Virus record (IMG/VR): IMGVR_UViG_3300045988_153208
Length of the DNA stretch: 25,827 bases
Strand: one strand, 5' to 3'
DNA from: a virus
The translations under genes and the position numbers were made by a program. Numbering within the stretch: the first letter of the stretch is position 1; each line of letters starts with the position of its first letter. Shown here piece after piece: positions 4,869 through 24,926 of this stretch. Below the pieces are notes generated by a model that had not been told where the DNA came from, searched no databases, and saw only the letters and a program-made list of their open reading frames with translations.

Positions 4869-4883
4869 AAAATTTTGATTAAA

Positions 4884-7318: not shown

Positions 7319-7340
7319 GTTTTCAATCTCCTTTTACTCA

Positions 7341-8495: not shown

Positions 8496-8755
8496 TACTT
8501 TTTAATCTCCTATAATAAACTAATACATTCAAATACAGTTTTTCTATAAATTGAGAACTCAATATCATTTAAAACATTTAGCCCTTCTAATTTACTAAGC
8601 AACTATAAAAATCGCGGGTCCTAAATAAAAATTTCATTTAAGCCCGCAATTTCAATAATAACTGTATTTAATTGTTTATCCCAATCTTCTTCATTTTCTC
8701 TCATAGGGATTAATTTCCACAGTTGATTAGTTAATCTTACTATATTTTTCTCCAT
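8495..8755 (-). CDS. Small hypothetical protein, about 86 aa. Its stop overlaps the ATG of the downstream gene (TAATG).
   Basis: ATG at 8753-8755. Minus-strand translation MEKNIVRLTNQLWKL... has 3 in-frame TAGs and ends at TAA 8495-8497. Weak RBS. Confidence 0.3.
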
Positions 8756-8783
8756 GACTTCATTAGAAATATCTGTATGATAT

Positions 8784-9371: not shown

Positions 9372-9392
9372 GATACGCCTCCTATTTATTTA

Positions 9393-9980
9393 TTATTCAG
9401 CAGATTTAGTTTCAGTTTGCTTTACTACTTTGTAAGCATTCCCAGATGTACGACGTCCTGCGGGAGCAGATTCTGTAACACGTCTTTCAGCTGGCTTATC
9501 TGCGATAGTTTCCTTTTTATCATCTTCTTTACTAGCGCGGTCATTTTCAATAGCCTTATCTACGTCAAAACCAGTTTTAGCTTTTAGAGCTTCACGCTTA
9601 GCCATATCAGTAATAGGCAATTGAACAGACATAGTTTTAATCAAATCAATAACCCCAATAGGAGCAAAATCAAGAGCATCTAAAAATGCATCAATAGAAC
9701 CACTAAGAATTAAATCACGCACTTGCTCTTCTGACATATTATATTCAGGCTCACGATGGACATTTAAATCATCAGTAACTTCATTTTCCATAATCTGTAA
9801 GAAATTAGCAATTAACTCACGACCGCCGGGTTGATAAGTCAATTTTTCTAATTCACTAAATGGAATACGCTTTACTTCACCGGGTGCCCACTCACGTCTC
9901 AAGTTACTCTCAGGAATTCTATATACAACAACACTAGTACTTCTATTTTTTACATTAAACATATCTTCAGAATGAATCAT
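9393..9980 (-). CDS. Hypothetical virion protein, 195 aa, basic Ala/Arg-rich C-terminus. No in-frame TAG.
   Basis: Complete ORF in the track. ATG at 9978-9980 preceded by AAGGAG. TAA at 9393-9395. Confidence 0.6.
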   Translation of the reverse strand: MIHSEDMFNVKNRSTSVVVYRIPESNLRREWAPGEVKRIPFSELEKLTYQPGGRELIANFLQIMENEVTDDLNVHREPEYNMSEEQVRDLILSGSIDAFLDALDFAPIGVIDLIKTMSVQLPITDMAKREALKAKTGFDVDKAIENDRASKEDDKKETIADKPAERRVTESAPAGRRTSGNAYKVVKQTETKSAE

Positions 9981-10001
9981 TTTATTATCTCCTTTTTCTC
10001 T

Positions 10002-10040
10002 AAAAAAAATAAGGGGAGAGGGAGTAAATCCCTTCTCCCC
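10002..10040 (-). terminator. Hairpin GGGGAGAGGGA-GTAAA-TCCCTTCTCCCC plus U-run on the minus strand, immediately downstream of the putative capsid gene.
   Basis: Inverted repeat 10013-10040 with A-run 10002-10009 on plus. Sequence-similar to the 4838-4866 hairpin. Confidence 0.55.
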
Positions 10041-10065
10041 TTAAACAATAGTTATATTAAGGTTT

Positions 10066-11175
10066 TAATCAAATAGTACCACTCTTACGGCCATCATAGG
10101 TAACAACCTTACCAGTAATGCCATCATAATTCCAAGTATACATTTGACCCATTAAGGAAGTGTCAACATAAGAGCAAATGTTGTTAGCCAACATACAACC
10201 AACGCCGACCTTCTTATAAACCTGAATCTCACGAGAACGATCGTAATTGCTGAATTCATCAACAATAGTTCCACCCTCGAAAGCAATCTTTACAGGCTTG
10301 CCATCAACACCAGTAGGAATAATCCAAGCATAACCAGGATCAATAACCTTACGAGTATTACTTTCATCTTCGAAGCCCTACTCTAAAATAACAACCTTGG
10401 TTCCCTTATAGGTAGCCAAACGGCCAGTATTCCACAGCTCAGTCTTCATAGCTTCAGTATAACGCCAAGCTTCATTAGGAATCATACGAACAGCAAATTC
10501 ATAAGTACAATAAATAGTAGGAGTACCATAAGCAGAAGCAATGGTAATCAAACGATCCATAGCACCCTCATCAAAACCTGCTGCAGCAACGCGGTTAGCA
10601 GGAGGTAGCTGATTGATAGAAGACTTCAAAGCCAAAGCAACTTCCTTATAAATCAGTTCATCCATACCATCCATAATAATCTTGGTAACTTCAGCAAAAT
10701 CAACACGACCATCTAAGAACTCTTCGAAGCCGATTTGAGCAGCTCCGCCGATAGCAGAGGTACGGACCTCAAAGCTCTCGCTCTCAGCAGGTCCCAGCTT
10801 GAAGACTTCATAGATACCAGCCAGTCCAACACGAGTCACAAACTGCTTAGCACGTGCGCGTGTATTTAGAGGACGACGGAAAATGGGCTTATCACCCTGA
10901 GCAAACTGCTTAACTTCAGCAAACTGCTCATAAGACTGAGAAACCTTCTTAGGAAGAACTTCATCCAAAGTCTCCTCAATCATTGAGAAAATTAGATTTT
11001 TATTTTCACGATATAGAGCATTGGTACCAGCCAGCTCGTTCATCTCATTACGTAAAGTATCGTTCAGAGCCTCATAAGAAAGGTTCTGACCATTATAACT
11101 GTAAGCCACAGGAGAAGAAGGATCAGCCTTAGCAACAGTCTTCATTAAAGCAACTAAATTGTTTCTATCTAACAT
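10066..11175 (-). CDS. Putative major capsid protein, 370 aa. One in-frame TAG at 10378-10380.
   Basis: ORF-track 10378..11175 continues in frame through TAG to TAA at 10066-10068 (315 nt in frame). ATG at 11173-11175 with AAAGGAGAG. Position scaffold-decoration-capsid as in lambda/SPP1. Followed by a strong hairpin. Confidence 0.5.
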
Positions 11176-11192
11176 TATTCTTCTCTCCTTTC

Positions 11193-12128
11193 TTACGCAA
11201 TACGTAGAATCTTAGCGCCACGTTGTCCATCAGGCATAGTATATACCTTAACAACCTGCCACTTCATATCCTGACTCTCATCTTTTACAAGAATTCCGTC
11301 AGCAGCTGCTGGAGCTAAAATATCACCAACAGAAACACTATCTTCATTAATCATATTAGTAGTATAATGATCACCAACATTAGTCTTGAAGACACGAGGA
11401 ACCATTGCAGTGCCTGGAGTCATACGCTTCTCATGATAAACACCAAGCTTCTTATATGGATCATTAGTCCAAGTCAGCTCTTCGTAAATGTCAGCAACAT
11501 CAGTTAGAACCTTATCATAAGCATACTTTACAGGCACAGGAGTCTTAGTCTGATTGGTCTTAGGATCAATCTCATACTCTACACCATTATAAGTAAACTT
11601 ATTGTCCTTAACATCATAAACTTCGCCAGCGATGGTAACAGTCTTTAGACCCTGATCTAAAGCAACAGTGTGCTCAAGCACCTTGTGATCAGCACCAGTT
11701 TCATCAACACCATTCCAGAAACGTCCACCATATTCAACCTCGGTATGCTCCCAATCGTATGGAGAATAAATACGAGCCTGATAGTCGTCCTTTAGCATAG
11801 CAAATTCGCAATCCCACTGCTTAGTTCCATCAGGATGATCGCGATATAACTTAATCTCATTATAAACTAGCATCCACTCGCCCTTGCCAGTAAAATTCAC
11901 TTCACCAATACCATTGGCATTAGCAGCGTAATCATACTTGACAAACTGACCGTTTTCAAGAATATTAATACCCTTGTTAGCAGGCAACTGAGCATAAATT
12001 TGAGCGGTTCTTTGTGCAGACAGGTGATTTGGCTCAACCTGACCATAACCAAACTCAACATACTTAGCCTGTGACTTAGGTGGATTTTTACCAACGCCTA
12101 AACGAGAATTTAAAAAATCCTTAAACAT
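11193..12128 (-). CDS. Capsid-associated protein, 311 aa. Decoration-like by position between scaffold and capsid; could alternatively be the major capsid protein.
   Basis: Complete uninterrupted ORF. ATG at 12126-12128 with AAGGAGG. TAA at 11193-11195. Confidence 0.55.
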   Translation of the reverse strand: MFKDFLNSRLGVGKNPPKSQAKYVEFGYGQVEPNHLSAQRTAQIYAQLPANKGINILENGQFVKYDYAANANGIGEVNFTGKGEWMLVYNEIKLYRDHPDGTKQWDCEFAMLKDDYQARIYSPYDWEHTEVEYGGRFWNGVDETGADHKVLEHTVALDQGLKTVTIAGEVYDVKDNKFTYNGVEYEIDPKTNQTKTPVPVKYAYDKVLTDVADIYEELTWTNDPYKKLGVYHEKRMTPGTAMVPRVFKTNVGDHYTTNMINEDSVSVGDILAPAAADGILVKDESQDMKWQVVKVYTMPDGQRGAKILRIA

Positions 12129-12146
12129 TTAAGTATGTCCTCCTTA

Positions 12147-13736
12147 TTAGTTTTTATTGGCTGATTCTAGAACAGCCTTGACCCAAGCTGGCATTCCAGC
12201 ATCTCTGTCATCATCTAAATTGCTTAAATTATAGGTAGTTGGGCCTTTATCATTATTATCATCATCAAGGTTAAAATTAACCTTGTTGCGAACACAAATA
12301 ACAGAAAGTTTTGCTTCAATATCATCAACAGAATACTTATCAATGTTATCAATAACATCTTTCTTATCATCATCAGACAGCATATAGAATGATTGAATCA
12401 TAGCTTCTTTATCCTTGCGTTCAATACTATTTTTAAACTCAGTTAAAGAAGTATTAGTTTCACTTAGAGTTTTATTTTCAGCCTCTAATAAACTAAATTT
12501 ATTTTGTAATTCTTCATATTCTGCCTTTAAGCTAACATATTCTTCAATTTCATCCAAGGAATACTTTTTCTTTTTCTTTTTATCCTCATCATCTTCTGAA
12601 GGATCGTCATCTTCATTTTCTGACTTTTGACCATTATTTTTAGAAGAACCATCATCTTTTTTGTTCTCAGGGTCGCCAGAATTATTGCCCTTATCATCGT
12701 TTGCCTTTTTATTTTCTTCTTCTTCTTGCTTTTTCTTAAATTCGGCTTCATAAGCTTCAACCGCATCTAAAGCAAACTGAGGCTCTGCTGCTGGAGTATA
12801 AGATTTAGTTACTTCAATTAAACCTTCACCAGGAACAAGACCATCAGAATCACTCAAAGAAAAGTTTAAACGATAATATTTCATATCTCCGCGGTCTTGA
12901 AGAATAGCAAATTTTTGACTATTATCTTCAAAAACGCCATCAATACGATATTTAGAGCAATAATTGTTAGAGCCATCAGGGAAAGCCTTATTTACATATT
13001 CCCATAAAGCACTCCATAGAGAATCTCCGATTTCTACGGCATATCTATTAAACACTTTTGCTCCTCCTTCTTTTAATAATTCTTTTAGTTCGTTCATCAT
13101 TGAGTATAGTTCATTTTTAAAACTATCATCAAATGAAAGAGAAAACTTTGTAATAGAGGAGCCTTCGAAGCAAGGTTCACACTCTTCTCCTAAAATACAA
13201 AGTTTAGAAATAATTGCTTCATTAATAATGAAAAACTACGGCTTTCCATTATTATCTTTCGTCCAAGTTCCATCTAAAGTACCTTCATCGAGCTCCATAG
13301 AATGATTATTGCCTTGCTCAATGATGCGCTTACATTCTGGATATTGGCCGGTCCATAAATATCCTTCAGTCATAAGATATTCATGTTCATTAACGCCATC
13401 ATCTAAAAATTTCTAAAACCAAACCTTGGCACCTAAATCTACAAAACCATAAGGTTTAGTAGTGTCTTTCATTTCAAACTTTCCGTTTGAAATATCAATA
13501 ATTCTATTGTGTTCCTCAAAATCTCCATTAGATTCATTATAAAAGCCAACAATAGGACTGCCAGGGAGACTATTAGCCATCTCCCTCGCAGTTTCTTTAG
13601 AAATAATGCTTCGATTGCGATTTGGTTCATCCCCAACGTAGCAAACTTTAATTTGGCATTTAGAAATCAAAGGATTAATAGGAGTTACATTAATAAATTC
13701 ACAAGGCGTTTCAAGTTTAATACTTTGATGCTTCAT
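12147..13736 (-). CDS. Capsid scaffolding protein fused to an about 210-aa N-terminal domain (possibly prohead-protease-like), 529 aa. In-frame TAGs at 13413 and 13236.
   Basis: ORF-track 13413..13736 and 12147..13100 are in the same frame. Hand translation of 13101-13412 shows no TAA/TGA. ATG at 13734-13736 with AAGGAGG. C-terminal half is highly acidic with coiled-coil-like repeats (EYEELQNKFSLLEAENKTL) and a K-run, typical of scaffold proteins. TAA at 12147-12149. Confidence 0.5.
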
Positions 13737-13747
13737 GATTTACCTCC

Positions 13748-15409
13748 TTAATTCATTGACTCTTTATTTTTTATGGTTTTTTCACTTTTCTAATCATCAG
13801 CCTTTTCAGGTCGCCCAGACTATTTTGTTTCAGTAGTCTGTTTTGTAGTAGTCTATTGATTACTACTTCCTGAATTATTTTGTGTTTTATTCTAATTGTT
13901 TGAACCTTTATTACCCAAAACATCTTGACTACTCATAGTAGAAGACATTAATGGTGGGATCATAATTTCAGTTAATTTCAACACATCATTTTCAAATACC
14001 GCAGTATTTAAAATAAAACTCTAAGAGTGACCAAGAGCAATTTGAGGTAGCATCTTAGAATAACCAAGTTGCGTTTGTTCTTTATATAATTTTGACATTT
14101 CTTTATAATTATATTGTGTAGTTTCAAGCATATAAAATTTAAAACTATATTTCTTATTGTTCGCAACTTTCATCTTTACTATTCTATCAAAAAAAATGTT
14201 AAATTGCAACAACAAGTTTCTAACAGTTGATTCATCATTAAGGATAGACTTCTCTAATGATAAATTACCATCAGTATTAAATAGATTTTGAGAAATACCT
14301 AAATTATTATAAACAGTACGTTCAACTTTTGCTAAATCATCTGTAGTAGTTGTAGTATTTTTATCTGATAAATCAATAGATTGAACATCAGTAAATGTTG
14401 TTAAAACATCAACACCAATAGCTCTTGATAACATAGCAACAGCATTATTATGTATGTCACGAGATTCATCAATATCAAATATTAAATCGCCATTTTTATC
14501 CATTGGAAGTTTTTGAACAATAATTTTTAACAACTTCTACATTTGTTTTCTGCGGTCTAAATCTTGAGCAGCATCTAAATCCATAAGAGCAGGGATAGAA
14601 TTAATAAATGGTGGGACATCACTACCATTAAAATTAAATTTCACACTTAATTCTGGAGATAGTAAATACCAACTTCCACTATAATCTCCCTTAATATCAG
14701 GAAGTAATTTTCCTTTCTTATATAAAACATATCCGCGCTAAAATTCTTCGGGGAATAATTTTAATACGCGCATACGATAATTAGGATCTGGAAACTAATC
14801 AAAAAACCGCATGTCAAACTCAATCGCTGGCATACCAGCCACAAAATATCTAGAACGGCAATAACTAGCAGGTAATTCTTGTAGCATTAAACTATTTGCA
14901 GATTGCACTATATATCCATAATAACAACCATTTTTCATAATACTTTGAGCAATATCACCGCAGATTTTTTTAATATAAGTATTATCTAAATAATTTAATA
15001 ACTTTGAAAAATCTTTTAAAACTTTTTCATCTTTTACTGTATCATCTAAAATCTCTGGAGCGACATACCAATCATATCTATACAAATAAGCAAAATAATT
15101 ACATACTCGCTCATAAATGCCGCTTATATCATAAAATAAATTAGAAATTCTACGCATTTCAACAATATCACGATTTATCATAGCTCGTAATACATCATTT
15201 TTAGTGACCATGCGACATGGTCCACGACGATTAGGATATAGCCGAGCAAATGACCCTAAATCTAATACAGCATCATCTAATGTTTGAACCCCAACTTTTA
15301 TTTTACGATATTCTGTTGGATCAGCAGTTCGATAATCACTTGTTCCATTGCTGATATTAAATCCTTTGGAGTGGATGATTTCCTAACGTGATAATTCTTT
15401 AGTATCCAA
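13748..15409 (-). CDS. Portal protein, 553 aa, with a Q/T/N/S-rich C-terminal tail and multiple in-frame TAGs.
   Basis: Putative TTG start at 15407-15409, 7 nt after AAGGAGG. Same frame as ORF-track 14795..15211 and 14021..14533. Hand translation continues to TAA 13748-13750. Located between terL and scaffold. Sequence FYDISGIYERVCNYFAYLYRYDWYV is portal-like. Confidence 0.55.
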
Positions 15410-15421
15410 AATTCCACCTCC

Positions 15422-15778
15422 TTAATATCCAGCTAATTGCATTATATAATCATATGTAATAAGATTTTCATCTGTATAAGGAATCTCTATTAATTTAAAA
15501 TCATGTAAAGCACAAAAACGTCGTTTTTGATTATCATTATATTGTTGTTGATATAAACCTTTTTTACCACCAAATTTTGCGCTAGGCTCATAATGCTATT
15601 TACCCTAATATTCAATAATAAAATCAATTCTACCATCATCATCAAAAACGACAAAATCGAAACGTAAGGGTCTGCCACTTGGTGCCTTCAAATCTGGGAA
15701 AATATACTCCATCTTAAATGGTAATTCAGCTTGTCGCAAAATCTCTTCAATTTTAATTTCGCCTCTAGACGCTCTCAT
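15422..15778 (-). CDS. Small Vsr/DUF559-like (PD-(D/E)xK) endonuclease, 118 aa. Possible free-standing homing endonuclease between terL and portal. Two in-frame TAGs.
   Basis: ATG at 15776-15778 with GAGGAGG. Translation ...LRFDFVVFDDDGRIDFIIEY[TAG]GK[TAG]HYEP... carries a D..(I/V)E..G..H-type motif. TAA at 15422-15424 overlaps the portal RBS. Confidence 0.35.
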
Positions 15779-15788
15779 AATTACCTCC

Positions 15789-17522
15789 TCAATTCAAGAA
15801 ACACCAATCTTTAGCATTAAACTTTTTACGTTTCTTCTTTTTATCTTCTTCTAATTTTAAATAATATAGTCCATATTCAAAAGCAGAAAATTTATCTTTT
15901 CGGATACTTTTATTTGCTTGTTTCAGGATAATATTTACTCCTTCAGTTTCTTCACGCAAATTCATCATTTCTTCTTTTAATATGGAAGTTAATGTAAATG
16001 GTTTTAATTCTTCTGCCCTCTATTCTGGAGTCATAGTTTGACCTTTCTTTTTAGCAAGAAGTTTATTTTTTGCTACGCGCTCATCAATTAAAAATTTCAC
16101 TTTTCCAGAAGCAAGTTGTGATTTAGCAATCGCGTGAGCTTCTGTATTAAGTGGCGCATTAGCTTTTATAATATACATAGCATCTAATACTGTATTAGAT
16201 GTTTTATATTTTTTATAAAATAAATCATCGTCATTAACAACACCAAAATCAGGGAAAATTTCATTGGTTTCAGGATCAATCTACGTCTTAACCATGTAAT
16301 CAATTAAACCAATTCCTAAACCATTACCATCAATTACAATTCTATCAGCATTATATTTATAATATAATTTTTTTAATTTAATAGTTTGGTCTTCAAAATG
16401 TTCATCAGATAATGTATATATATTCACTAGACTTTTAATCGACCCACCTTGTGATTGTGGAGTTACTTTAAATACACAAATAACTGAATCGCATCCTTTA
16501 CGACCAACGTCGACAGCAAGTACATAAGATGCTAATTTTGAATTACGCCCGGATGCTTCATATTCAGGCTAATTTAATATTCTATTTCTATCAAATATTT
16601 CAGCATTAAAAAATGCATCTTCTACAGTGCCAGACCATTTACTTTCATATTCTCGATCAAATGAACTTTCATTGAACGTTCCGTCCATTTTTAGGTCTTT
16701 AATAAAATTCGCATCTAATAATTTCATTAAAACAGGAATACGATAAGTACCACCCATAATAATAGATTGCTAAGGTTTAACAATCTCCCAAACTAATAAT
16801 TGGATTAATTTATCATAGGGGAAAGTATTTTTATATCCAGCAGTAGTAATATAAATTTGAGATTTATTAAGAGTTTCATCAGGTTGAGTAGTACCATCCA
16901 TACACATACGAGAAATATTCATTGTAGGAATAATAACTTGTGATAGAATATCACCATCAACACCAACACACTCTTCAATTAAACCACCATGGCGACGTTT
17001 ACCACGAGAAGACTCTCTTGCAGCAATATTATCAAAATATGAACCATTTTTAAATACATATTTAACATAATCTTTACCTTCAAGAGTTTGACCACGGCGC
17101 CAATCTATTTCTTTCTAAAATGCAGGAATAAGAGTACAAATTTCTTGAACTTTTTCTTTTACAATTCCAGCCGCTTGTTCTTTACCTCCAGAAGTAATAA
17201 ATAATTTACATCTGGGATATAAAATCGCACGACACATTAAGACCATCATTGACAAAAAAGATTTTGAATAAGCACGAGGGAATACAGCATAAATATATTT
17301 ATGACGCATCGCAGCGCGCAAAAAGATTCTCTAATAAAAATAGAGTTTAAAATGTTGAGGGCCGCCATCAGGTCCTGCCATGAAGTCGATAAACATATCT
17401 GGGTATTCTCTCCAAAAGGCTATGTACTATCTTGCTTCTGGTATAATTGCACGAAGACGGTCCTCTGAAATTCCAATCTTTTTACGCTTCTAAGATAAAT
17501 CAAGTAAATCCTATAAAGCCAT
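15789..17522 (-). CDS. terL: Terminase large subunit, about 577 aa, with multiple in-frame TAGs.
   Basis: ATG at 17520-17522 (AAGGA RBS). Same frame as ORF-track 17115..17321 and 16569..16757. Contains a Walker-A-like motif (AVFPRAYSKS), an ..RHGGLIEE.. segment, and a C-terminal nuclease-like region. TGA at 15789-15791. Confidence 0.6.
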
Positions 17523-17523
17523 A

Positions 17524-18720
17524 TTATCCTTCTAAATTTCTTAAAGTCTGAGCATCTATTTCAGATTCTTCCTCAAGGAAATCATTATATTCAATTAAAT
17601 CTTCATCTTTAAGATGATCGATTTCCTCCATCGTTAAATCTTCTTCAATATCTTGGTCTTCTTCTTTATTTTCTTCTTCTTGCATTTTCTTAATAGCCCC
17701 TTCAATGAGATTACCTAGATTCATCTCTTCAGTGACTAATGTGTGTGTATAATTCTTTAAATCTTGTAAAGTTTCATCAACTTTATCTTTTGGACCTTCT
17801 GTATAATACCGAGGGATAAATCCTTCAGTCTCACACATGGCTACTAATTCTCCAATAGAATCAAATGCTTCTCCTGTATCTGCTTTGTTTTGAGCGGCGG
17901 TGAAATTACCTGATTTCATTAGACTATCATAAACCTTGCTCATCTTTTGGAAACCTTCGATATCACCAATATCGATCAACTAGTTTGCTTTTAAGGATGT
18001 CTTACAAATTAATTTTAATGTATCAATATGACCAGCGCCGCGGATATCATAAGAACTCATCATTTCTTCATAGAGTTGCTCTAGTTTAACCCATTCTTCG
18101 GGTTTATACGCTTTACCCCACTTCATACGAAGATATAAAATATCTTCTTCTGTTAAATCGAGGTCATCTGCTGGGTCATGTTCAATACCATTCTATTGAT
18201 CAAAATAATCATCACCATCTCTAAAACGTTCTGGTAATTCAGGAGTGTAAGGTTTTAATTCTTCTTCTGGAATAGCGACAGTAGATTTAGCAATAGCTGT
18301 TGCTATTTGCTGGGCATCATAACCTTGTCGTTTCATAGTTTGTTCTAATTTATTATTAGCCACTTCCTATAAAAACTCAGAATCTTTCCATCGATAATCT
18401 CTATATTGTTTAAGTTTCATTTTGGACAAATATCTACCTAAAATACTCATACCAGTTAATTTAGATTTATCTTGTCCATATTTTACCATCAATTTACTCC
18501 ACTCATCTGGAACATAAGGTACATCAATTTCTTGTAGAATCCACATATAAGTTTCTGGATTCCAATTATCTACAAGCATTGTAATACATTTTTTACATTG
18601 AGGGAGTTTTCCATCATTTGGATATTTTTCTAAATTATTAGATGTATAAAACTGGTCAGCGCCCATAGTTCTATTACATCGTTCGCAATAATATACTTTT
18701 TTATCATTATCTACAGTCAT
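17524..18720 (-). CDS. 398-aa protein with an N-terminal Cys4 zinc ribbon (CERC..x23..CKKC) and a very acidic C-terminus. Possible terminase small subunit or DNA-packaging partner. In-frame TAGs at 18367, 18193 and 17980.
   Basis: ORF-track 18367..18720 and 17524..17979 are in the same frame. Hand translation of 17980-18366 shows no TAA/TGA. TAA at 17524-17526 sits immediately before the terL ATG. Confidence 0.4.
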
Positions 18721-18756
18721 AATTTTCCTCCTTATATCTATCCAATAACAGGCATC

Positions 18757-19827
18757 TCAAAATTATAACTGTTTGCCCTTGTTTTTAGCATTACGGCATT
18801 TTTTACAAATACTATAATAACCATCTTTACTAGTTTTATTTTTGCTAAAATATTTATTATGTGCTAATTTAATTTGCCCACAGCGACTACATTTTTTATA
18901 TTTACCTTTTGCTTTATGTAAATAATAATCATATAGGTATTGGTCTTCAGCCGCAGAGGCGATTAATTTTGGAATTTTATTGCGCCATAAACTAGAAATA
19001 TATTCTAAACTATGAGTAATATTAAATTCCTCTTGAATTTTCTTTTGAATGTCTATATTCTATAATCCATCAATTTTATATTCAACTATTCTATCATATA
19101 AGGGATAATCTTTAAGAGCAATGGTACATAAATTATCGAAATCTTCCATAATATACCATAAATCTCTTTCAAAATCTCCCCAACTATCTTGCTTTAAACG
19201 AGAATAATTACATAAAATTGCAGAACATACTCTAGGGTCTAAGAGTGAAACGCCATCCGGAATTGGATAACCATCATCATCAAAAATGCAAGTCGTGTCC
19301 TCTAATGGAATAAAATTTCTTGAACGAGTAATTTTAGTCATAACAATTGGACGACGAACTGCATTTTTAATAACATACTAATCTTTACGCATTTCAATAA
19401 TAGCACGTTTAATTATAAATGCTTCGCGTCCTTCACTAACTCGTAATTTGGCTTCCCAAGTAGTAATGGCGTCTCTTAACTATTTTAAATGAGGTATTTC
19501 TTCTATATCTTTTTTAGTAATTGTAATCTTAGGCTAAAATATTGTATTTTTATTTTCAGTAATTAAATTATAAATTCCATCTTCGCCATTCTCAAATTGG
19601 GAAACAAGACCTTCAAAAGATGTTTCACGCTTATTAACTGTTGCCATACGATTATCAGTTAATAATTTACGCTCCTTTTTCTCTTGTTTCTCCATACAAA
19701 GAATGATATAGTCCCCTAATATTTCTAAATATCGAGGAGAGGGGTCTGGGGTTTCCTCTAATATTTTCTTGACTAATTCATTTCTTTCTTCTGGAGTTTG
19801 TAAGGAATAATCTAATTTTATCATCAT
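18757..19827 (-). CDS. 356-aa hypothetical protein with a C-terminal Cys4 zinc ribbon (CSRCGQ..x17..CKKC). First gene of the leftward operon. Four in-frame TAGs.
   Basis: ORF-track 19534..19827 and 19060..19341 are in the same frame, joined through TAGs at 19534, 19480 and 19378. TGA at 18757-18759. ATG at 19825-19827 with GGAGG. Confidence 0.45.
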
Positions 19828-19852
19828 TACCTCCAGATTTTTTTACGTCTTC

Positions 19853-19880: not shown

Positions 19881-19936
19881 AATTTTAATAAATGCATTTA
19901 AAAAATTTTTAAACGATACTATTAATTGGAAAAAAT

Positions 19937-19965
19937 TTGACAATAAAAAAAATTTTTTGTATTAT
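19937..19965 (+). promoter_or_regulatory. Rightward sigma70-type promoter (TTGACA-N17-TATTAT) for the early operon, in the divergent intergenic region.
   Basis: TTGACA at 19937-19942 and TATTAT at 19960-19965. AAAGGAG RBS, then ATG at 19996. Confidence 0.4.
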
Positions 19966-19995
19966 TATTATAATAAAAAATAAAAGGAGAAGTTT

Positions 19996-20394
19996 ATGGT
20001 AATTGCTATTATTATATTAAGTATATTATTAATATTATCTATTATATATAATATATTGTTTACAAAAGGAGTCGCTAAACTTCTTGACCCTGAAAACATT
20101 GAACAAAAATATAATTTAATAGCAGATTATTATGGAGATGCAAATAACATTGAAGAAAGTTTCCCTTGTTGTTTGCTATTACATCTCCAATTTAATGCGA
20201 AGGAATCCGCAAAAATCACAGACTTCTCTAATTATGAAAATTCTAATATAATCGCTTATTCAGTTTTGTCCAAGGGCCCGCCACCGCCTGGATACGCCAA
20301 TCAACTGGAAGAAGACGGCTCTATAAGAATATTAGTCCACAATGTTCGAGTAAATAAATATAAGGATGGTGAATATTTTTGGGAGCCTATGTAA
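19996..20394 (+). CDS. Membrane protein, 132 aa (N-terminal transmembrane helix, PPPPG motif).
   Basis: Complete ORF with good RBS. Hydrophobic N-terminus VIAIIILSILLILSIIYNILF. Confidence 0.6.
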   Translation: MVIAIIILSILLILSIIYNILFTKGVAKLLDPENIEQKYNLIADYYGDANNIEESFPCCLLLHLQFNAKESAKITDFSNYENSNIIAYSVLSKGPPPPGYANQLEEDGSIRILVHNVRVNKYKDGEYFWEPM

Positions 20395-21203: not shown

Positions 21204-21521
21204 ATGGAAGATGGAAAAAATTATTTTGATATTGTAATGCGAGAAGGCCAAGCAATAGTTCATAATGAAGGTTCTATTCATTAGGTTGATAGTTTAGGCC
21301 GTCTTGTTTTTCCTAAAAATTTAAGACAAAAATATGGTATTACTCCTGGTGACCGCATGGAATTTTATACTATTGAATATAATGGTGAAGTTTATGTTGG
21401 AGTGCGAGTGAGTAAACGATATGGTAGTAGAATAGAGTATTTACGCGCTAAAGAAGTATTAGATGATTTGGGAATTGAGATTCCTCAAAAACTAACTGAT
21501 GCTATTAATGGAGTAATGTAA
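21204..21521 (+). CDS. AbrB/MazE/SpoVT-family (swapped-hairpin) DNA-binding protein, 105 aa, with an in-frame TAG at codon 27 (21282-21284).
   Basis: GGAGGAG RBS. Hand translation MEDGKNYFDIVMREGQAIVHNEGSIH[TAG]VDSLGRLVFPKNLRQKYGITPGDRMEFY... carries the classic VDxLGRxVIPKexR..GI..GD motif. TAA at 21519-21521. Absent from the ORF track because of the TAG. Confidence 0.55.
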
Positions 21522-21746: not shown

Positions 21747-21956
21747 TTCTTTTTACCGTTATCTGAATTGAAAAAAGTTTTGGTGAGAGTTTGTACCAGC
21801 CAAACAAAAAAATAAAAATCAAAAAAAATTTTTTCCCGAAACCCACCCCCCCGGTCGGTTTTTATCTGAGAAAAAATCTGAACACTATCGAGACCTTCTT
21901 GGGCTTGGCGCACGCGGAAAGGCTAGACCATCCCCAATACAGCCCCTCAACTCGCA

Positions 21957-22041: not shown

Positions 22042-22070
22042 TAGACACGCATCCTGAAATCTGGTATAAT
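22042..22070 (+). promoter_or_regulatory. Promoter TAGACA-N17-TGgTATAAT driving the 31-aa peptide gene.
   Basis: TAGACA at 22042-22047, TATAAT at 22065-22070, with an extended -10 TG. Confidence 0.5.
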
Positions 22071-22095
22071 AGTATTATCAAAGGAGGAATGGTCT

Positions 22096-22191
22096 ATGTC
22101 TATCATCTACAAAGTCGTGCGCTTCATCACCGCGGTCGCTGTTGTCGCGGGCACTGGCATCCTGATGTGCCTCATCTGCCTCCCTCATTGA
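22096..22191 (+). CDS. 31-aa hydrophobic peptide (MSIIYKVVRFITAVAVVAGTGILMCLICLPH), its own transcription unit. Small membrane peptide, possibly type-I-toxin-like.
   Basis: AAAGGAGGAA RBS 8 nt before ATG 22096. TGA at 22189-22191 lies inside the terminator stem. Confidence 0.5.
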   Translation: MSIIYKVVRFITAVAVVAGTGILMCLICLPH

Positions 22192-22204
22192 GGGAGGTTT
22201 TTTG
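22179..22204 (+). terminator. Intrinsic terminator CCTCCCT-cattg-AGGGAGG plus T6.
   Basis: Perfect 7-bp GC-rich stem followed by TTTTTT. Confidence 0.7.
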
Positions 22205-22210
22205 TTGCCC

Positions 22211-22291
22211 TAAGATTGTTAAAAATTTAACGATGTAGCAAGATTGTTAAAAGATTAACAATGTAGCAAGATTGTGAAAGATTTAACAATC
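22211..22291. repeat. Three tandem about 28-bp repeats (tAGCAAGATTGTTAAAArtTTAACaATG), each containing the palindrome TTGTTAA-N4-TTAACAA.
   Basis: Copies at 22211-22235, 22236-22263 and 22264-22291, read directly. Confidence 0.8.
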
Positions 22292-22295
22292 ACTC

Positions 22296-22400
22296 AACCA
22301 AGAGAGGACAAGGACACGCACGGCACAGTGGACAAGGCAAAGCGAGCCAACGAGCGAGCGACCAACAGACAAAGAGAACAACAACACAACACAACACAAT
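22296..22400. other. About 100-nt tract almost devoid of T on the plus strand (A/C/G only; CA and CAA repeats, ACAACAACACAACACAACACAA).
   Basis: Direct reading; extreme strand composition skew. Confidence 0.8.
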
Positions 22401-22408
22401 GATAGATA

Positions 22409-22430
22409 CATTGTTAATGTATTAACAATG
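22409..22430. promoter_or_regulatory. Operator-like palindrome CATTGTTAAT-gt-ATTAACAATG (10-bp perfect arms) between the two skewed tracts.
   Basis: Direct reading. Confidence 0.6.
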
Positions 22431-22432
22431 TA

Positions 22433-22505
22433 GTATAGTAGTATGGTATGGTATGGTAGGGTATGGGGTGGGGTGGGCTATGGGTAGTGGGTAGGGAGAG
22501 AGAGT
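22433..22505. other. About 73-nt C-free G/T/A tract with TATGG/TAGGG repeats and a G-quadruplex-type motif (GGGGTGGGGTGGGCTATGGGTAGTGGGTAGGG).
   Basis: Direct reading; four or more GGG runs separated by 1-5 nt. Confidence 0.75.
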
Positions 22506-22726
22506 AGACCAACAATAAGAGATGCGGACGCGCTTCCCACCGGTCGGCTCACCGGGAACCGCGCACAACAAATCTAATGTAAGTATTCTATTTCTCTTTT
22601 GGGTTCATCATCGTTAACGGCCCTAATCGCCCAAGAATAAGCCCTCGCACAATTGCCAAACAACACAGCAGGGCAGGCGCTGAACCGCGCGTATCCCGCA
22701 ACACACAGCTCTCACAGAGGAGCGAG

Positions 22727-22753
22727 CAAGATTGTTAAAAGTTTAACAATGTG
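22727..22753. promoter_or_regulatory. Operator-like palindrome copy (CAAGATTGTTAAAAGTTTAACAATGTG).
   Basis: Matches the repeat consensus. Confidence 0.55.
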
Positions 22754-22840
22754 AGAGCCAAGAGCAAGAGAGTAAAGAGTGCGCTTGCACAGGTAGCAAG
22801 GAGGATACACACGGCACAGTTGATACATTCGCTGACCGAG

Positions 22841-22866
22841 CAAGATTGTTAAAAAATTCACAATGT
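22841..22866. promoter_or_regulatory. Operator-like palindrome copy (CAAGATTGTTAAAAAATTCACAATGT).
   Basis: Matches the repeat consensus. Confidence 0.5.
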
Positions 22867-22890
22867 GTGGATGTGGTGAAGTCGCTGTTT

Positions 22891-22911
22891 AATTGTTAAA
22901 AATTTCACATT
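22891..22911. promoter_or_regulatory. Degenerate operator-like copy (AATTGTTAAAAATTTCACATT).
   Basis: Partial match to the consensus. Confidence 0.4.
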
Positions 22912-22990
22912 CGCTGTTGGATGCCGAACACGGTCGCAACGCCCCAGACTTCACCACATTAAAGTGTTAAAGAAAAAAAATTGCAAATGC

Positions 22991-23012
22991 GATTGTTAAA
23001 ATAATCACAATC
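22991..23012. promoter_or_regulatory. Operator-like copy (GATTGTTAAAATAATCACAATC) about 40 nt upstream of the promoter at 23054.
   Basis: Matches the consensus. Confidence 0.5.
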
Positions 23013-23053
23013 TTCATCCCGAAAATAAATAGGTTATTTTTGAAAAAACCTCT

Positions 23054-23081
23054 TGACAAATTGCCCTATGTGTGCTACAAT
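23054..23081 (+). promoter_or_regulatory. Promoter TTGACA-N16-TGcTACAAT for the two-gene operon 23112-23550.
   Basis: TTGACA at 23054-23059 and TACAAT at 23076-23081. Confidence 0.55.
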
Positions 23082-23111
23082 GATTACAGTAAAACAAAGG
23101 AGGACGATACA

Positions 23112-23348
23112 ATGTCTAACATCTATGGAGTCTGCTACACCACGAAAGAGCCTGTTGTCTACAACAGAGGGACACAGTGGGAGAAAACCTGTTCCGATTT
23201 CCTGTTCGTTCAGGCAAACAAGGACAATGGCACAAAGCTGGTGGACAAGCTGAACGCTATGCTTGCCGCAGGTGTGGAAAAGTACGAACTGCTGGACATG
23301 ACCAAGATTGACCATTTCTATCTTGACAAGTCCGAGGAAATGTATTAA
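23112..23348 (+). CDS. Hypothetical small protein, 78 aa.
   Basis: AAAGGAGGAC RBS and ATG at 23112. No in-frame TAG. TAA stop. Confidence 0.6.
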   Translation: MSNIYGVCYTTKEPVVYNRGTQWEKTCSDFLFVQANKDNGTKLVDKLNAMLAAGVEKYELLDMTKIDHFYLDKSEEMY

Positions 23349-23361
23349 GGAGGAACTGACA

Positions 23362-23550
23362 ATGACACGCACTATCGCTAATACCTACATCTGTATCAAC
23401 AACGAGGGACAGATGCTCTCCATCATTGCCCGCACGGGCAACGAAGCCCATAACATCGCAATAGGGTTTTTGCGGAAAGCAAACATCGTGAGCGTTCGCC
23501 GTGTATTCAAGTCTGGCAAGCTGGGCAAGGAAATTCTGAAAATTAAATAA
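23362..23550 (+). CDS. Hypothetical small basic protein, 62 aa.
   Basis: TAAGGAGGAA RBS and ATG at 23362. TAA stop followed by the terminator. Confidence 0.6.
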   Translation: MTRTIANTYICINNEGQMLSIIARTGNEAHNIAIGFLRKANIVSVRRVFKSGKLGKEILKIK

Positions 23551-23554
23551 AATA

Positions 23555-23584
23555 AACAGGGCGCAAGCCCTGTTATTTTTTTTA
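23555..23584 (+). terminator. Intrinsic terminator AACAGGGC-GCAA-GCCCTGTT plus T9 (GNRA tetraloop).
   Basis: Direct reading. Confidence 0.75.
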
Positions 23585-23603
23585 TAAAATGCGAAAAAAA
23601 CTA

Positions 23604-23632
23604 TTGACAAATATAAATAAGCGTGTTATAAT
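23604..23632 (+). promoter_or_regulatory. Promoter repeat copy P1: cTATTGACAAATATAAATAAGCGTGTTATAAT (TTGACA-N17-TGtTATAAT).
   Basis: TTGACA at 23604-23609 and TATAAT at 23627-23632. About 90% identical to the copies at 24022 and 25281. Confidence 0.6.
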
Positions 23633-23664
23633 GAATACAGAAATTAAGAAATGAGGTACACAAA

Positions 23665-23853
23665 ATGAAGAACATCTATGAAATCGAGAACATCATCGAC
23701 GAAATCCCCGCTGATGATTGGGCTGGCATTTGTAATCTGATGGACTACTACTATCAGTCGAATTTCTCCGCTGACGCTGAACAGAGACTGGCAAGGGCAA
23801 TCGCTCCTTACGGCTTGACCGCAGAGGAAATCCTGACCTGGGACGCTGAATAA
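23665..23853 (+). CDS. Small acidic protein, 62 aa.
   Basis: RBS AAATGAGGTACACAAA and ATG at 23665. TAA at 23851-23853 lies in the terminator loop. Confidence 0.55.
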   Translation: MKNIYEIENIIDEIPADDWAGICNLMDYYYQSNFSADAEQRLARAIAPYGLTAEEILTWDAE

Positions 23854-23868
23854 GCGTCCTATTTTTTT
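23841..23868 (+). terminator. Terminator GGACGC-tgaataa-GCGTCC plus T7.
   Basis: Direct reading. Confidence 0.6.
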
Positions 23869-23876
23869 GCTGTTGG

Positions 23877-23896
23877 ATTGTTAAAATTTTAACGAG
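23877..23896. promoter_or_regulatory. Operator-like palindrome copy (ATTGTTAAAATTTTAACGAG) between the terminator and the antisense promoter.
   Basis: Matches the TTGTTAA-N4-TTAAC consensus. Confidence 0.5.
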
Positions 23897-24722: not shown

Positions 24723-24773
24723 ATATGGCATTATGCCCATAATTCGGTTGAAAATTTTGGTGATTTTGCCTAT

Positions 24774-24801
24774 TGACATTCTGCCCCATTTGTGTTATAC
24801 T
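24774..24801 (+). promoter_or_regulatory. Promoter TTGACA-N16-TGtTATACT with no ORF immediately downstream. It transcribes into the GC palindrome and toward the next cassette.
   Basis: TTGACA at 24774-24779 and TATACT at 24796-24801. Confidence 0.45.
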
Positions 24802-24804
24802 CGG

Positions 24805-24831
24805 TCGCGCGCCCACGGTCCTGGCGCGCGA
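24805..24831. promoter_or_regulatory. GC-rich palindrome TCGCGCGCC-cacggtcct-GGCGCGCGA lying between face-to-face promoters.
   Basis: Perfect 9-bp inverted repeat. Confidence 0.6.
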
Positions 24832-24839
24832 AATTTACC

Positions 24840-24868
24840 ATTATACCATGTCCCAGCAATTTTGTCAA
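24840..24868 (-). promoter_or_regulatory. Minus-strand promoter (TTGACA-N17-TGgTATAAT) facing the 24774 promoter and firing antisense toward gene 24503..24694.
   Basis: The rc of 24863-24868 is TTGACA. The rc of 24840-24848 is TGGTATAAT. Confidence 0.45.
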
Positions 24869-24926
24869 TAGGCAAATCAAACAAAAATCATACATTCCAA
24901 ATCCCGAAATTTGTGCATTTTAACTA

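What the first reader, a model, noticed from the sequence alone, without database searches (positions are those of the whole stretch)
22296..22505. Extreme strand-composition switch: about 100-nt T-free ACG tract, then a palindrome, then a C-free G/T tract with G-quadruplex motifs
- 22296-22400 contains essentially no T on the top strand (CA/CAA/AGC repeats).
- 22433-22505 contains no C and has GGGGTGGGGTGGGCTATGGGTAGTGGGTAGGG plus TATGG/TAGGG telomere-like repeats.
- The two tracts are separated by the perfect 10-bp-arm palindrome at 22409-22430.

Such homopurine/homopyrimidine-like skew and G4 potential is very unusual for phage DNA. It could mark a replication origin or unwinding region, a packaging or recombination hotspot, a transcription block, or a structured noncoding RNA (C-less if made from the plus strand).
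Basis: seen in the sequence. Interest (0 to 1): 0.6.

Follow-up and report, generated by a model that had tools for sequence, protein, structure and literature searches.

The report
Rex operator between two skewed tracts
In the untranslated control region that heads the early genes of a large gut phage, the palindrome matches the published binding-site consensus of the host redox-sensing repressor Rex (one of nine copies), and the T-free and G-rich stretches beside it are conserved, non-coding simple-repeat sequences that most likely belong to small untranslated transcripts, not a replication origin.

Summary
22295-22399 has one T in 105 nt, and 22431-22505 is 49% G with one C; no shuffle reaches either. 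The interpretation needs revising.

- **Palindrome.** It is not unique. Its core 22411-22428 matches the published clostridial Rex operator TTGTTAA-N4-TTAACAA exactly. Nine such boxes lie in 22216-23895. Across 46 related phage loci there are 96 boxes on the early-gene side, 2 on the late side and 0 in shuffles.
- **Setting.** This is the roughly 1.3-kb untranslated head of the standard-code early region of a TAG-recoded Firmicutes siphophage, seen on 100-200 kb contigs.
- **Tracts.** They are non-coding, built from short repeats ((ACAAC)n, (GTATG)n, GGGGT), and vary in length. The unit T-poor tract, pivot, G-rich tract is single-copy and recurs with different sequence in three clades.
- **G4 and origin.** Canonical G4 motifs are missing in 4 of the 7 close relatives. 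There is no DnaA-box cluster.
- **Best reading (confidence about 0.4).** A Rex-covered, back-to-back promoter-like site makes untranslated G/U-rich transcripts. Direction and function are unresolved.
- **Strongest rival.** The tracts are neutral slippage spacers inside a functional Rex-box array.

The parts
22295..22399 (+). T-free tract: A 47%, C 28%, G 24%, one T at 22329. Ends in the (ACAAC)3.8 microsatellite at 22381-22399. On the minus strand it is A-free and U/G/C-rich.
   Evidence: Non-coding: indels of +12, -8 and +/-1-2 nt in relatives keep the T-freeness but break the frame.
22407..22432 (.). Perfect palindrome with 12-bp arms. Its core 22411-22428, TTGTTAATGTATTAACAA, is an exact match to the clostridial Rex operator consensus.
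   Evidence: Consensus taken from PMC5367854 and PMC9600882. Invariant in all 8 clade members.
22411..22439 (+). Sigma-70/sigmaA-like promoter match TTGTTA-17-TATAGT (9/12), reading into the G-rich tract. The -35 hexamer is the left half of the Rex box.
   Evidence: Identical in 8/8 clade members. An equivalent ATCACA-18-TATACT match exists in L045. None found in the L034 clade.
22399..22428 (-). Sigma-70/sigmaA-like promoter match TTGTTA-18-TATCAT (9/12), reading into the T-free tract and giving an A-free RNA. The -35 hexamer is the right half of the Rex box.
   Evidence: Both hexamers and the 18-nt spacing are kept in 8/8 clade members, with one spacer base differing in 2. L045 has TTGTTA-16-TATCAT. 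L034 has TTGATA-17-TATTGT, but that spacing is kept in only 2/13 of its clade.
22431..22508 (+). G-rich, C-poor tract: (GTATG)5.2 at 22441-22466, then GGGGT/GGGTA units. Overlapping canonical G4 motifs at 22459-22496.
   Evidence: Length-variable in relatives, through whole GGGT/GTATG units.
22216..22289 (.). Three tandem Rex boxes with 28-bp spacing: 22216-22233 (1 mismatch), 22244-22261 (0), 22272-22289 (1). Directional flanks GCAAG...GTAG.
22732..23010 (.). Four further Rex boxes: 22732-22749 (0 mismatches), 22846-22863 (1), 22893-22910 (2), 22993-23010 (2). All lie upstream of the consensus promoter at 23053-23081.
23878..23895 (.). Ninth Rex box (1 mismatch), between two early genes.
22525..22568 (+). 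GC-rich hairpin that follows the G tract. It belongs to a hairpin/terminator module repeated between early genes in this phage family. In the L034 clade the equivalent hairpin is a canonical intrinsic terminator on this strand.
22042..22205 (+). Upstream neighbour: promoter (TAGACA-17-TATAAT with TG), 31-aa hydrophobic peptide gene 22096-22191, and terminator 22178-22205. It is convergent with the putative minus-strand transcript.
21821..21859 (+). A8T6-CCCGAAA-C-run element that opens the untranslated region. It marks the boundary between the 30%-GC TAG-recoded part and the 45%-GC standard-code early region.

Best explanation
The finding sits in the roughly 1.3-kb untranslated head (about 21.8-23.05 kb) of the early region of a TAG-recoded Firmicutes, probably Clostridia, siphophage from the gut, seen on 100-200 kb contigs.

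**Shown at sequence level**
- The palindrome is an operator for the redox-sensing repressor Rex. Rex binds DNA when NADH/NAD+ is low and leaves when NADH rises (established knowledge).
- It is one of nine boxes in the window.
- Its two half-sites double as the -35 hexamers of two weak, back-to-back sigmaA-type promoter matches.

**Inferred**
- Bound Rex would occlude both promoters.
- When Rex leaves, RNA polymerase makes untranslated transcripts outward from the palindrome. Leftward gives an A-free U/G/C RNA, the complement of the T-free tract. Rightward gives a C-free G/U/A RNA, the G tract, ending at the family's standard GC hairpin.
- The 'strand-composition switch' is therefore the junction of two divergently oriented, G+U-rich non-coding transcription units, or of one unit and its upstream region.
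- The tracts are built and resized by replication slippage of short motifs.

**Not known**
- What the RNAs do. My guess is riboregulation of early mRNAs or of the convergent 31-aa peptide gene, timed by host redox state.
For: **Rex identity**
- Three exact matches and four one-mismatch matches to TTGTTAANNNNTTAACAA lie in 22216-23895. The consensus is as published for Clostridiaceae.
- Half-site variants TTGTGAA and TTCACAA, the general Rex consensus, occur independently in either half. That fits a dimeric protein site, not an RNA hairpin.
- Family-wide: 96 boxes in 299 kb of early sides, 2 in 632 kb of late sides, 0 in shuffles.

**Promoters at the palindrome**
- Both matches were found by the scan. 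Their hexamers and spacing are kept in 8/8 clade members.
- A divergent pair is also present at the pivot in L045.
- The blocks conserved across clades are ACAATGATA and (T)AACAATG, which are the minus-strand -10 and -35.

**Non-coding status**
- Frame-breaking indels. Code-15 ORFs are not conserved. No Rfam or tRNA hit.

**A real unit**
- Single copy, same order and orientation in three clades (8 + 13 + 1 sequences) with largely different sequence. A flanking gene, by contrast, is highly diverged: compare the DUF7352 ORF translations.

**Terminator**
- A canonical terminator directly follows the G tract on the + strand in the L034 clade.

**Strand test on the L034-clade hairpins**
- Four one-sided changes are all C-G to U-G on the minus strand, with none broken. 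The same changes break four pairs on the plus strand.

**Selection against T**
- No C>T change at the 27 C columns of the T-free tract, against 12.5% in neighbouring non-coding DNA (P about 0.03). G<->A changes occur at the normal rate.
Against: - Both promoter matches are only 9/12. Every early-gene promoter in this family scores 11-12/12, and 9/12 matches occur by chance at 4-10 per 2.3 kb.
- In the L034 clade the minus-strand hexamer spacing is kept in only 2/13 members, because an (AAAT)n microsatellite intervenes. No plus-strand promoter is seen there.
- The wobble test rests on 4 events (P about 0.06).
- In the L034 clade, mutations to T are tolerated in the T-poor tract.
- The tracts evolve no more slowly than neighbouring DNA, and the G tract evolves faster.
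- The minus-strand RNA of the window clade has no predicted structure (z = -0.03) and no recognisable terminator.
- Its pairing with early ribosome-binding regions is no better than shuffled versions (z = 0.14).
- Purine loading of the + strand, as in the early mRNAs, argues for rightward rather than leftward transcription of the T-free tract.
- Rex binding and transcription were not, and could not be, tested here.
Confidence: 0.4

Rival explanations
1. Neutral simple-sequence spacers. Only the Rex boxes, and perhaps the pivot, are functional: as operators, or as a multi-copy decoy that titrates host Rex as the genome replicates. The T-free and G-rich tracts are slippage-generated low-complexity DNA with no function of their own. 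Their composition persists because slippage copies existing motifs.
For: - Both tracts are made of short tandem units and change length by whole units among close relatives.
- Their substitution rate is equal to or higher than in flanking non-coding DNA.
- The L034 clade tolerates T mutations.
- The whole unit is absent from clades with a short (300-380 nt) untranslated head, such as L047, L031, L057 and L088.
- Most Rex boxes do not overlap a promoter. That suits a decoy or architectural role.
Against: - The order, orientation and several sequence blocks are kept across three clades, while a flanking protein gene is highly diverged.
- C>T changes are absent in the window-clade tract (P about 0.03).
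- A 200-nt functionless insert held in 22 sequences of a phage genome needs explaining.
Confidence: 0.3
2. DNA-structure element. The G tract forms a G-quadruplex or R-loop, and the purine-rich tract forms H-DNA or a stable RNA:DNA hybrid. Together they create an unwinding site used as a transcription-primed replication origin, as at ColE1, T4 oriF/G and mitochondrial CSBII, or as a polymerase pause.
For: - Two overlapping canonical G4 motifs with G4Hunter 2.2. This is the only strongly G-rich site in 25.8 kb.
- G clusters lie on the non-template strand directly downstream of a promoter match.
- The sign of the local skew (A/C-rich on the left, G/T-rich on the right) is that of an origin.
- The region lies between late and early gene blocks.
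Against: - No canonical G4 motif in L015, L016, L017 and L072 (4 of 7 close relatives), in 3 of 13 L034-clade members, or in L045. L015, L017 and L072 also score below G4Hunter 1.5.
- The T-free tract has no G>C skew (G25, C29), so it is not R-loop-prone.
- No DnaA-box cluster.
- The unit is absent from related clades that must also replicate.
- Whole-genome skew could not be examined.
Confidence: 0.1
3. Nucleoprotein boundary like the phage T5 injection-stop region. An untranslated block of repeats and palindromes carries about 8 host-protein boxes (DnaA in T5, Rex here). It pauses DNA entry or insulates the first-expressed genes from the rest of the genome.
For: - T5's iss is a 1.2-kb untranslated, highly repetitive region with 8 host DnaA boxes at the edge of the first-transferred DNA.
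- Here a 1.3-kb untranslated region with 8 Rex boxes (plus a ninth 0.9 kb further in) sits at the edge of the early region.
- Many 120-200 kb contigs end 10-25 kb beyond it, on the early side. That is compatible with a genome end there.
Against: - Contig ends are not proof of physical termini, and several contigs run on through that point.
- Nothing is known about two-step injection in these phages.
- Box number ranges from 0 to 13 among clades.
- The hypothesis does not explain the composition of the tracts.
Confidence: 0.08
4. Hidden coding sequence or CRISPR-repeat mimic. The G tract would encode a Gly/Trp/Tyr-rich peptide if TAG is read as Gln. Alternatively, the 28-bp tandem palindromic units would mimic CRISPR repeats.
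For: - With TAG as sense, an ORF runs 22428-22577.
- The three tandem units are 28 bp each: a 20-nt stem-loop plus an 8-nt tail.
Against: - The code-15 ORF is frameshifted or truncated in 5 of 7 close relatives and in 3 of 12 L034-clade members tested. It also runs through a terminator and a promoter.
- Spacings of the further copies are irregular (139, 321, 114, 47, 100 nt).
- Arm variants break base-pairing instead of compensating for it.
- The sequence equals the Rex consensus.
Confidence: 0.02

Closest known systems
Rex operator (ROP) of Clostridia, TTGTTAANNNNTTAACAA (Ravcheev et al. 2012, as cited in PMC5367854 and PMC9600882)
   Same: The 18-bp inverted repeat is identical, with an A/T-rich 4-nt centre. 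Variants are the general Gram-positive form TTGTGAA/TTCACAA. The central copy overlaps promoter hexamers, as Rex operators usually do.
   Different: The boxes lie on a phage genome, in arrays of up to 9-13 per early region. Most copies sit 40-90 nt upstream of promoters or in spacers, not over them. Binding was not tested. No paper in the searched library links Rex boxes to phages.
RoxS/RsaE, a Rex-controlled small RNA of Bacillus and Staphylococcus (from my own knowledge, not checked here)
   Same: A Rex-gated promoter would drive an untranslated RNA with a single-stranded pyrimidine-rich region that could pair with Shine-Dalgarno sequences.
   Different: No sequence or Rfam similarity. No conserved C-rich motifs. 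Predicted pairing with early ribosome-binding sites is not above shuffles. The strand and the RNA ends are unproven.
Phage T5 injection-stop (iss) untranslated repeat region with 8 DnaA boxes (bioRxiv 10.1101/866236)
   Same: A non-coding block of about 1.2 kb at the edge of the first-expressed genes. It is packed with repeats and palindromes, carries about 8 binding sites for a host protein, and is conserved while neighbouring ORFs are not.
   Different: A different host protein. No evidence of two-step injection or of terminal repeats here. The T5 region is not known for base-free tracts.
Polypurine 5' mRNA stabiliser of phage SP82 and STAB-SD (Hue et al. 1995; Agaisse & Lereclus 1996; references listed in PMC3997798)
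   Same: A purine-rich, Shine-Dalgarno-like untranslated sequence in an early transcript of a Firmicutes phage. Early leaders in this family are likewise T-poor: 17% T against about 29% background.
   Different: The T-free tract is 3-4 times longer than real leaders. It has no gene behind it and no consensus promoter in front. Its similarity to real leaders is not above shuffles.
G-quadruplex / R-loop origin elements (ColE1 RNA II, mitochondrial CSBII, T4 oriF; from my own knowledge)
   Same: G-run clusters lie on the non-template strand just downstream of a promoter-like site.
   Different: The G4 motif is not conserved among close relatives. No replication genes or initiator sites are nearby.

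Membership tests
Rex operator (ROP) | 18-bp inverted repeat matching TTGTTAA-N4-TTAACAA (Clostridia) or TTGTGAA-N4-TTCACAA | tested here: met
   Three exact, four 1-mismatch and two 2-mismatch copies in 22216-23895. 0 of 100 shuffles reach the count. Consensus.
Rex operator (ROP) | Site overlaps or adjoins a promoter that it can occlude | tested here: inconclusive
   The central box covers the -35 of two 9/12 promoter matches. The other boxes lie 40-90 nt upstream of consensus promoters or in spacers.
Rex operator (ROP) | Bound by Rex and released by NADH; a rex gene is present in the host or the phage | not testable with these tools
   The host is unknown. No Rex homologue was found in the roughly 20-kb pieces held for each relative, which does not cover whole genomes.
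G-quadruplex-forming element | Four or more G3+ runs with loops of at most 7 nt; high G4Hunter score | tested here: met
   22459-22496, G4Hunter 2.2.
G-quadruplex-forming element | The motif is conserved where the element is conserved | tested here: not met
   Absent in L015, L016, L017 and L072 (4 of 7 close relatives), in 3 of 13 L034-clade members, and in L045.
Replication origin | Initiator boxes (DnaA) or iterons next to an AT-rich unwinding element, plus a genome-scale skew switch | tested here: inconclusive
   DnaA boxes are not enriched and none lies in the region. The skew minimum in the window, near 20 kb, coincides with the change in gene orientation. Whole-genome skew was not obtainable.
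Bacterial small RNA gene | Own promoter, intrinsic terminator, and conserved structure with compensatory changes | tested here: inconclusive
   Weak promoter matches. A terminator is seen only on the + strand in the L034 clade. There are no double compensatory changes. Four wobble-compatible changes favour the minus strand.
Known RNA families (Rfam 15) | A covariance-model match | tested here: not met
   No hit in 21.8-23.1 kb even at E <= 1. No tRNA or tmRNA.
Protein-coding gene (standard code or code 15) | An open frame conserved in relatives | tested here: not met
   Frame-breaking indels. Code-15 ORFs are not conserved.
T5-type injection-stop region | Untranslated repeat and palindrome block with host-protein boxes, at the inner edge of the first-transferred terminal DNA | tested here: inconclusive
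   The architecture is similar. The terminal position is only suggested by contig ends.

The most novel reading that the evidence does not exclude
A whole family of large, TAG-recoded gut Firmicutes phages wires its early region to the host NADH/NAD+ ratio through arrays of host Rex operators. In this clade one operator gates a pair of divergent, G/U-rich, base-restricted non-coding RNAs (A-free and C-free). Those RNAs would act as riboregulators of the early programme or of the adjacent small membrane peptide. That would be a phage reading host redox state directly to time infection.
Probability: 0.25. Interest if true: 0.75.

Novelty: new variant of a known kind. Interest (0 to 1): 0.5.

Why it matters
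If the boxes really bind Rex, these phages sense, or titrate, the host's central redox regulator. Phages co-opting host regulator sites is known (LexA boxes in prophages; putative DnaA boxes in T5). I found no report of it for Rex. The enrichment is very strong: 96 boxes against 2 across 46 loci. It is directly testable by gel shift with and without NADH.

It would link gut-phage infection timing to host fermentation state. The base-restricted tracts would then be a rare natural case of A-less and C-less transcripts.

If the tracts are only slippage spacers, the finding still corrects a tempting G4/origin reading.

Tried and rejected
**Database and motif searches**
- DNA similarity to deposited phages: none.
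- Rfam at E <= 1 and tRNA scan: nothing in the region.
- DnaA boxes: not enriched.
- A phage-encoded Rex homologue in the held sequences: none, using a Rex sequence recalled from memory. This is uninformative for whole genomes.
- PHROG and Pfam searches of neighbouring early proteins: no informative hits.

**RNA structure and pairing**
- A long hairpin pairing the two tracts: + strand RNA z = +0.65.
- Structure in the minus-strand RNA beyond the palindromes: z = -0.03 for the tract itself.
- Minus-strand RNA as a specific antisense to early ribosome-binding sites: z = 0.14 against shuffles.
- Long-range pairing of the G tract with the C-rich element at 21835-21852: 78% over 18 nt, but by eye not compensated in the L034 clade.

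**Coding and repeat readings**
- A code-15 (TAG = Gln) ORF through the G tract: not conserved.
- A CRISPR-repeat mimic for the 28-bp tandem units: rejected because of irregular spacing and non-compensating arm variants.

**Ancestry and promoter conservation**
- Homology of the T-free tract to real early leaders: best local alignment 26, against 25.2 +/- 2.7 for shuffles. Only composition and the CAAGAG start motif are shared.
- A cross-clade conserved minus-strand promoter: holds for the window clade and L045, but the spacing is kept in only 2/13 of the L034 clade.

**Considered by eye only and not pursued as chance-level**
- KOPS-like GGGTAGGG, Chi-like motifs, TRAP (G/U)AG repeats, AAV-type GAGC repeats.

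Full report
**1. Observation**

The window is T-rich overall (33% T). Yet 22295-22399 (105 nt) holds a single T at 22329, and 22330-22399 is a 70-nt T-free run. The next longest T-free run in the window is 34 nt. In 300 dinucleotide-preserving shuffles of the 45%-GC right part, the longest T-free run was 46 nt, or 60 nt with one T allowed.

22431-22505 has 37 G, 21 T, 16 A and one C at 22478. Its peak of 34 G in 60 nt exceeds every shuffle (maximum 30). C-free runs of 50-64 nt are ordinary in the C-poor left part of the window. G-richness is therefore the odd property, not the lack of C.

Local AT skew reaches +1.0 and GC skew +0.93. The palindrome is perfect and slightly longer than reported, with 12-bp arms at 22407-22418 and 22421-22432. 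Both tracts contain microsatellites: (ACAAC)3.8 and (GTATG)5.2.

**2. Genomic setting**

On the minus strand, 3-19842 becomes a continuous series of long ORFs only when TAG is read as sense. From their sequences I read these as terminase, portal, capsid, tail and tape-measure genes; TerL is supported, the others were not searched. The + strand gene 21204-21521 also carries an in-frame TAG.

That part is about 30% GC. From about 21.8 kb the sequence is about 45% GC and uses the standard code. It is packed with consensus TTGACA-17-TATAAT promoters, strong Shine-Dalgarno sites, small ORFs without family hits, and terminators.

The large terminase is closest (about 50% identity) to large siphoviruses of Enterococcus and Geobacillus. 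Identical early proteins occur on 150-199 kb gut-metagenome contigs. The finding therefore lies in the roughly 1.3-kb untranslated head of the early region of a TAG-recoded Firmicutes phage.

**3. The palindrome is a repeated operator identical to the clostridial Rex box**

ATTGTTAA-N4-TTAACAAT occurs 10 times with at most 3 mismatches. Nine of these lie in 22215-23896, and 0 of 100 shuffles reach 10. The 18-bp cores are at:
- 22216, 22244 and 22272, in tandem every 28 bp
- 22732, 22846, 22893, 22993 and 23878

The core equals the Rex-box consensus 5'-TTGTTAANNNNTTAACAA used for Clostridiaceae (PMC5367854 and PMC9600882, citing Ravcheev et al. 2012). The variant half-sites TTGTGAA and TTCACAA are the general Rex consensus. 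They appear independently in either arm without compensation. That is what a dimeric DNA-binding protein predicts and an RNA hairpin does not.

Across 46 distinct related loci there are 96 boxes (at most 1 mismatch) in 299 kb on the early side. The late side has 2 in 632 kb, and shuffled early sides have 0. Some clades carry 9-13 boxes.

I found no paper connecting Rex boxes with phage genomes. No Rex homologue turned up in the limited phage sequence held. Binding itself is inferred, not shown.

**4. The tracts are non-coding and conserved as a unit, but not as a sequence**

Seven close relatives (86-96% identical here) all carry both tracts. Indels in the T-free tract (+12, -8, +/-1-2 nt) keep it T-free but break any frame. 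With TAG read as sense, an ORF through the G tract is frameshifted or truncated in most relatives.

The region as a whole is about as conserved as the flanking genes. The G tract is its most variable part, changing by whole GGGT/GTATG units.

Two further clades have the same order and orientation with largely different sequence. They are the L034 clade (13 sequences, TerL about 79% identical) and L045 (76%). The order is a T-poor purine/CA-rich tract of 44-85 nt with at most one T (35 nt in L077), then an ATGTATG-type pivot, then a G/T-rich tract with G runs. A profile search finds exactly one copy per locus. A flanking gene, the DUF7352 ORF, is by contrast highly diverged between the window and L045, judging by eye from the translations.

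Other clades have a short (300-380 nt) untranslated head without the unit. The unit is therefore lineage-restricted.

Evidence for selection on composition is modest. In the window clade, none of the 27 C columns in the tract shows a C>T change, against 12.5% elsewhere (P about 0.03). G<->A changes are normal. In the L034 clade, changes to T are tolerated.

**5.

The window has two overlapping canonical G4 motifs with G4Hunter 2.2. However, L015, L016, L017 and L072 (4 of the 7 close relatives), 3 of 13 L034-clade members, and L045 lack a canonical motif. L015, L017 and L072 also score below G4Hunter 1.5.

The T-free tract has no G>C skew. DnaA boxes are not enriched and none lies in the region. 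Related phages lack the unit altogether. Genome-scale skew could not be obtained, so an origin is not excluded, but nothing positive supports it.

**6. What the palindrome does locally**

The two half-sites of the central Rex box are TTGTTA on either strand. Each lies 17-18 bp from a good -10 hexamer:
- TTGTTA-17-TATAGT rightward, at 22411-22439
- TTGTTA-18-TATCAT leftward, at 22428-22399

Both matches keep their hexamers and spacing in 8/8 clade members. L045 has a divergent pair at the same place: TTGTTA-16-TATCAT and ATCACA-18-TATACT.

The blocks best conserved across clades are ACAATGATA and (T)AACAATG, which are the leftward -10 and -35. In the L034 clade, an (AAAT)n microsatellite changes their spacing in 11 of 13 members.

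These matches are weak: 9/12, against 11-12/12 for all early-gene promoters. They are frequent by chance. The promoter reading is plausible but not established.

Outward from the palindrome both transcripts would be G+U-rich. The leftward one would be A-free and the rightward one C-free.

**7. Direction of transcription is unresolved**

For the plus strand:
- The tracts are purine-loaded like the early mRNAs.
- Early leaders in this family are T-poor (17% against about 29%) and often start with CAAGAG about 8 nt after the -10, as the tract does.
- In the L034 clade a canonical terminator follows the G tract on this strand.

For the minus strand:
- The promoter blocks described above.
- sRNA-like architecture in L034 and L045: 50-70 nt of unstructured CU-rich 5' part, GC hairpins, then a U-rich tail.
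- In the L034-clade hairpins, four one-sided substitutions are all C-G to U-G on the minus strand, and the same changes break pairs on the plus strand (P about 0.06).

Negative tests:
- Similarity of the tract to real leaders is not above shuffles.
- Pairing of the minus-strand RNA with early ribosome-binding sites is not above shuffles.
- The two tracts do not form a stable common hairpin.

**8. Best explanation and rivals**

I rank the readings as follows.
- **Rex-covered divergent promoter (0.4).** The site is a Rex-covered, divergent promoter-like junction whose flanks are untranslated, slippage-prone transcription units. The Rex identity of the palindrome is much firmer, about 0.7 for Rex or a Rex-like binder.
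- **Neutral spacers (0.3).** The tracts are neutral simple-sequence spacers within a functional Rex-box array, acting as operators or as a Rex decoy.
- **DNA-structure or origin element (0.1).**
- **Boundary like T5's injection-stop region (0.08).** This is suggested by the parallel with T5's 1.2-kb untranslated repeat block bearing 8 DnaA boxes, and by contigs ending 10-25 kb beyond the region.
- **Coding and CRISPR-mimic readings.** Effectively refuted.

**9. Novelty and verdict**

Host-factor boxes on phage DNA are a known kind of thing, and simple-sequence tracts are not rare. Arrays of Rex operators in the early region of a whole phage family appear to be unreported. A Rex box flanked by an A-free and a C-free potential transcript also appears unreported.

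I class it as a new variant of a known kind, with interest 0.5.

Noticed in passing
window 3-19842 (minus strand) and 21204-21521 (plus strand): The late and structural genes are open only if TAG is read as sense. Total ORF length roughly doubles, and one ORF reaches 1016 aa. The recoded, 30%-GC part ends at about 21.67 kb and the standard-code, 45%-GC early region starts at about 21.8 kb, so the two compartments differ in both genetic code and composition.
   Followed up: partly
window 21204-21521 (+): A gene with an in-frame TAG at 21282. With TAG = Gln its 105-aa product matches the AbrB/MazE/SpoVT DNA-binding fold (PF04014, 27.7 bits against a cutoff of 24.7). It lies about 300 nt before the untranslated region opens. 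It may be a regulator that can only be made once TAG suppression is active.
   Followed up: partly
46 related loci (L015-L092), early sides: Rex-box arrays are a family trait: 96 boxes on early sides against 2 on late sides. In clades L053 and L080-L087 there are 9-13 boxes. In L053 and L084 they recur in a fixed intergenic module: terminator, Rex box, a TGTGCAAA..GCACAA palindrome, then a consensus promoter about 70-90 nt downstream.
   Followed up: partly
window 24773-24926 (+): A consensus promoter (TTGACA-17-TATACT) is followed by the GC hairpin GGTCGCGCGCCCACGGTCCTGGCGCGCGA, with no ORF before the next promoter. This is a candidate small RNA. The same promoter-plus-hairpin unit recurs in L016, L021, L034 and L084.
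   Followed up: no
window 22096-22191 (+): A 31-aa hydrophobic peptide gene (MSIIYKVVRFITAVAVVAGTGILMCLICLPH) with its own strong promoter, Shine-Dalgarno site and terminator. It is conserved, with mostly third-position changes. It is convergent with the putative A-free transcript, a layout reminiscent of type I toxin-antitoxin pairs. The metagenome gene caller did not call it.
   Followed up: no
window 21821-21859 and 21927-21952: An A8T6-CCCGAAA-C-run element opens the untranslated region in many clades. Together with a second C-rich patch, these are the only other sites in the window with |G4Hunter| above 1.5 (C-rich, so on the opposite strand). They lie about 500-600 nt upstream of the G tract, with 78% complementarity over 18 nt to it.
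   Followed up: partly
L034 5600-5900 (and the rest of its clade): About 300 nt of G-poor (ACAT/TACA)n-rich low-complexity sequence lies directly upstream of the T-poor tract. It includes a 12-nt stretch, ACATACATACAT, complementary to the ATGTATGTATGT pivot.
   Followed up: no
window 25827 (end); contigs: The window ends exactly where ENA contig k119_14822 (186 kb) ends. Many 120-200 kb contigs of this family end 10-25 kb beyond the untranslated region, on the early-gene side. This may indicate a physical genome end or a repeat that breaks assemblies.
   Followed up: no
window 19937-19965 and 19925-19944: The divergent region between the late operon and the + strand low-GC genes has a near-consensus promoter (TTGACA-17-TATTAT). 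It overlaps a weak 3-mismatch match to the 20-bp palindrome pattern, and adjoins a 64-nt C-free stretch at 19942-20005.
   Followed up: no
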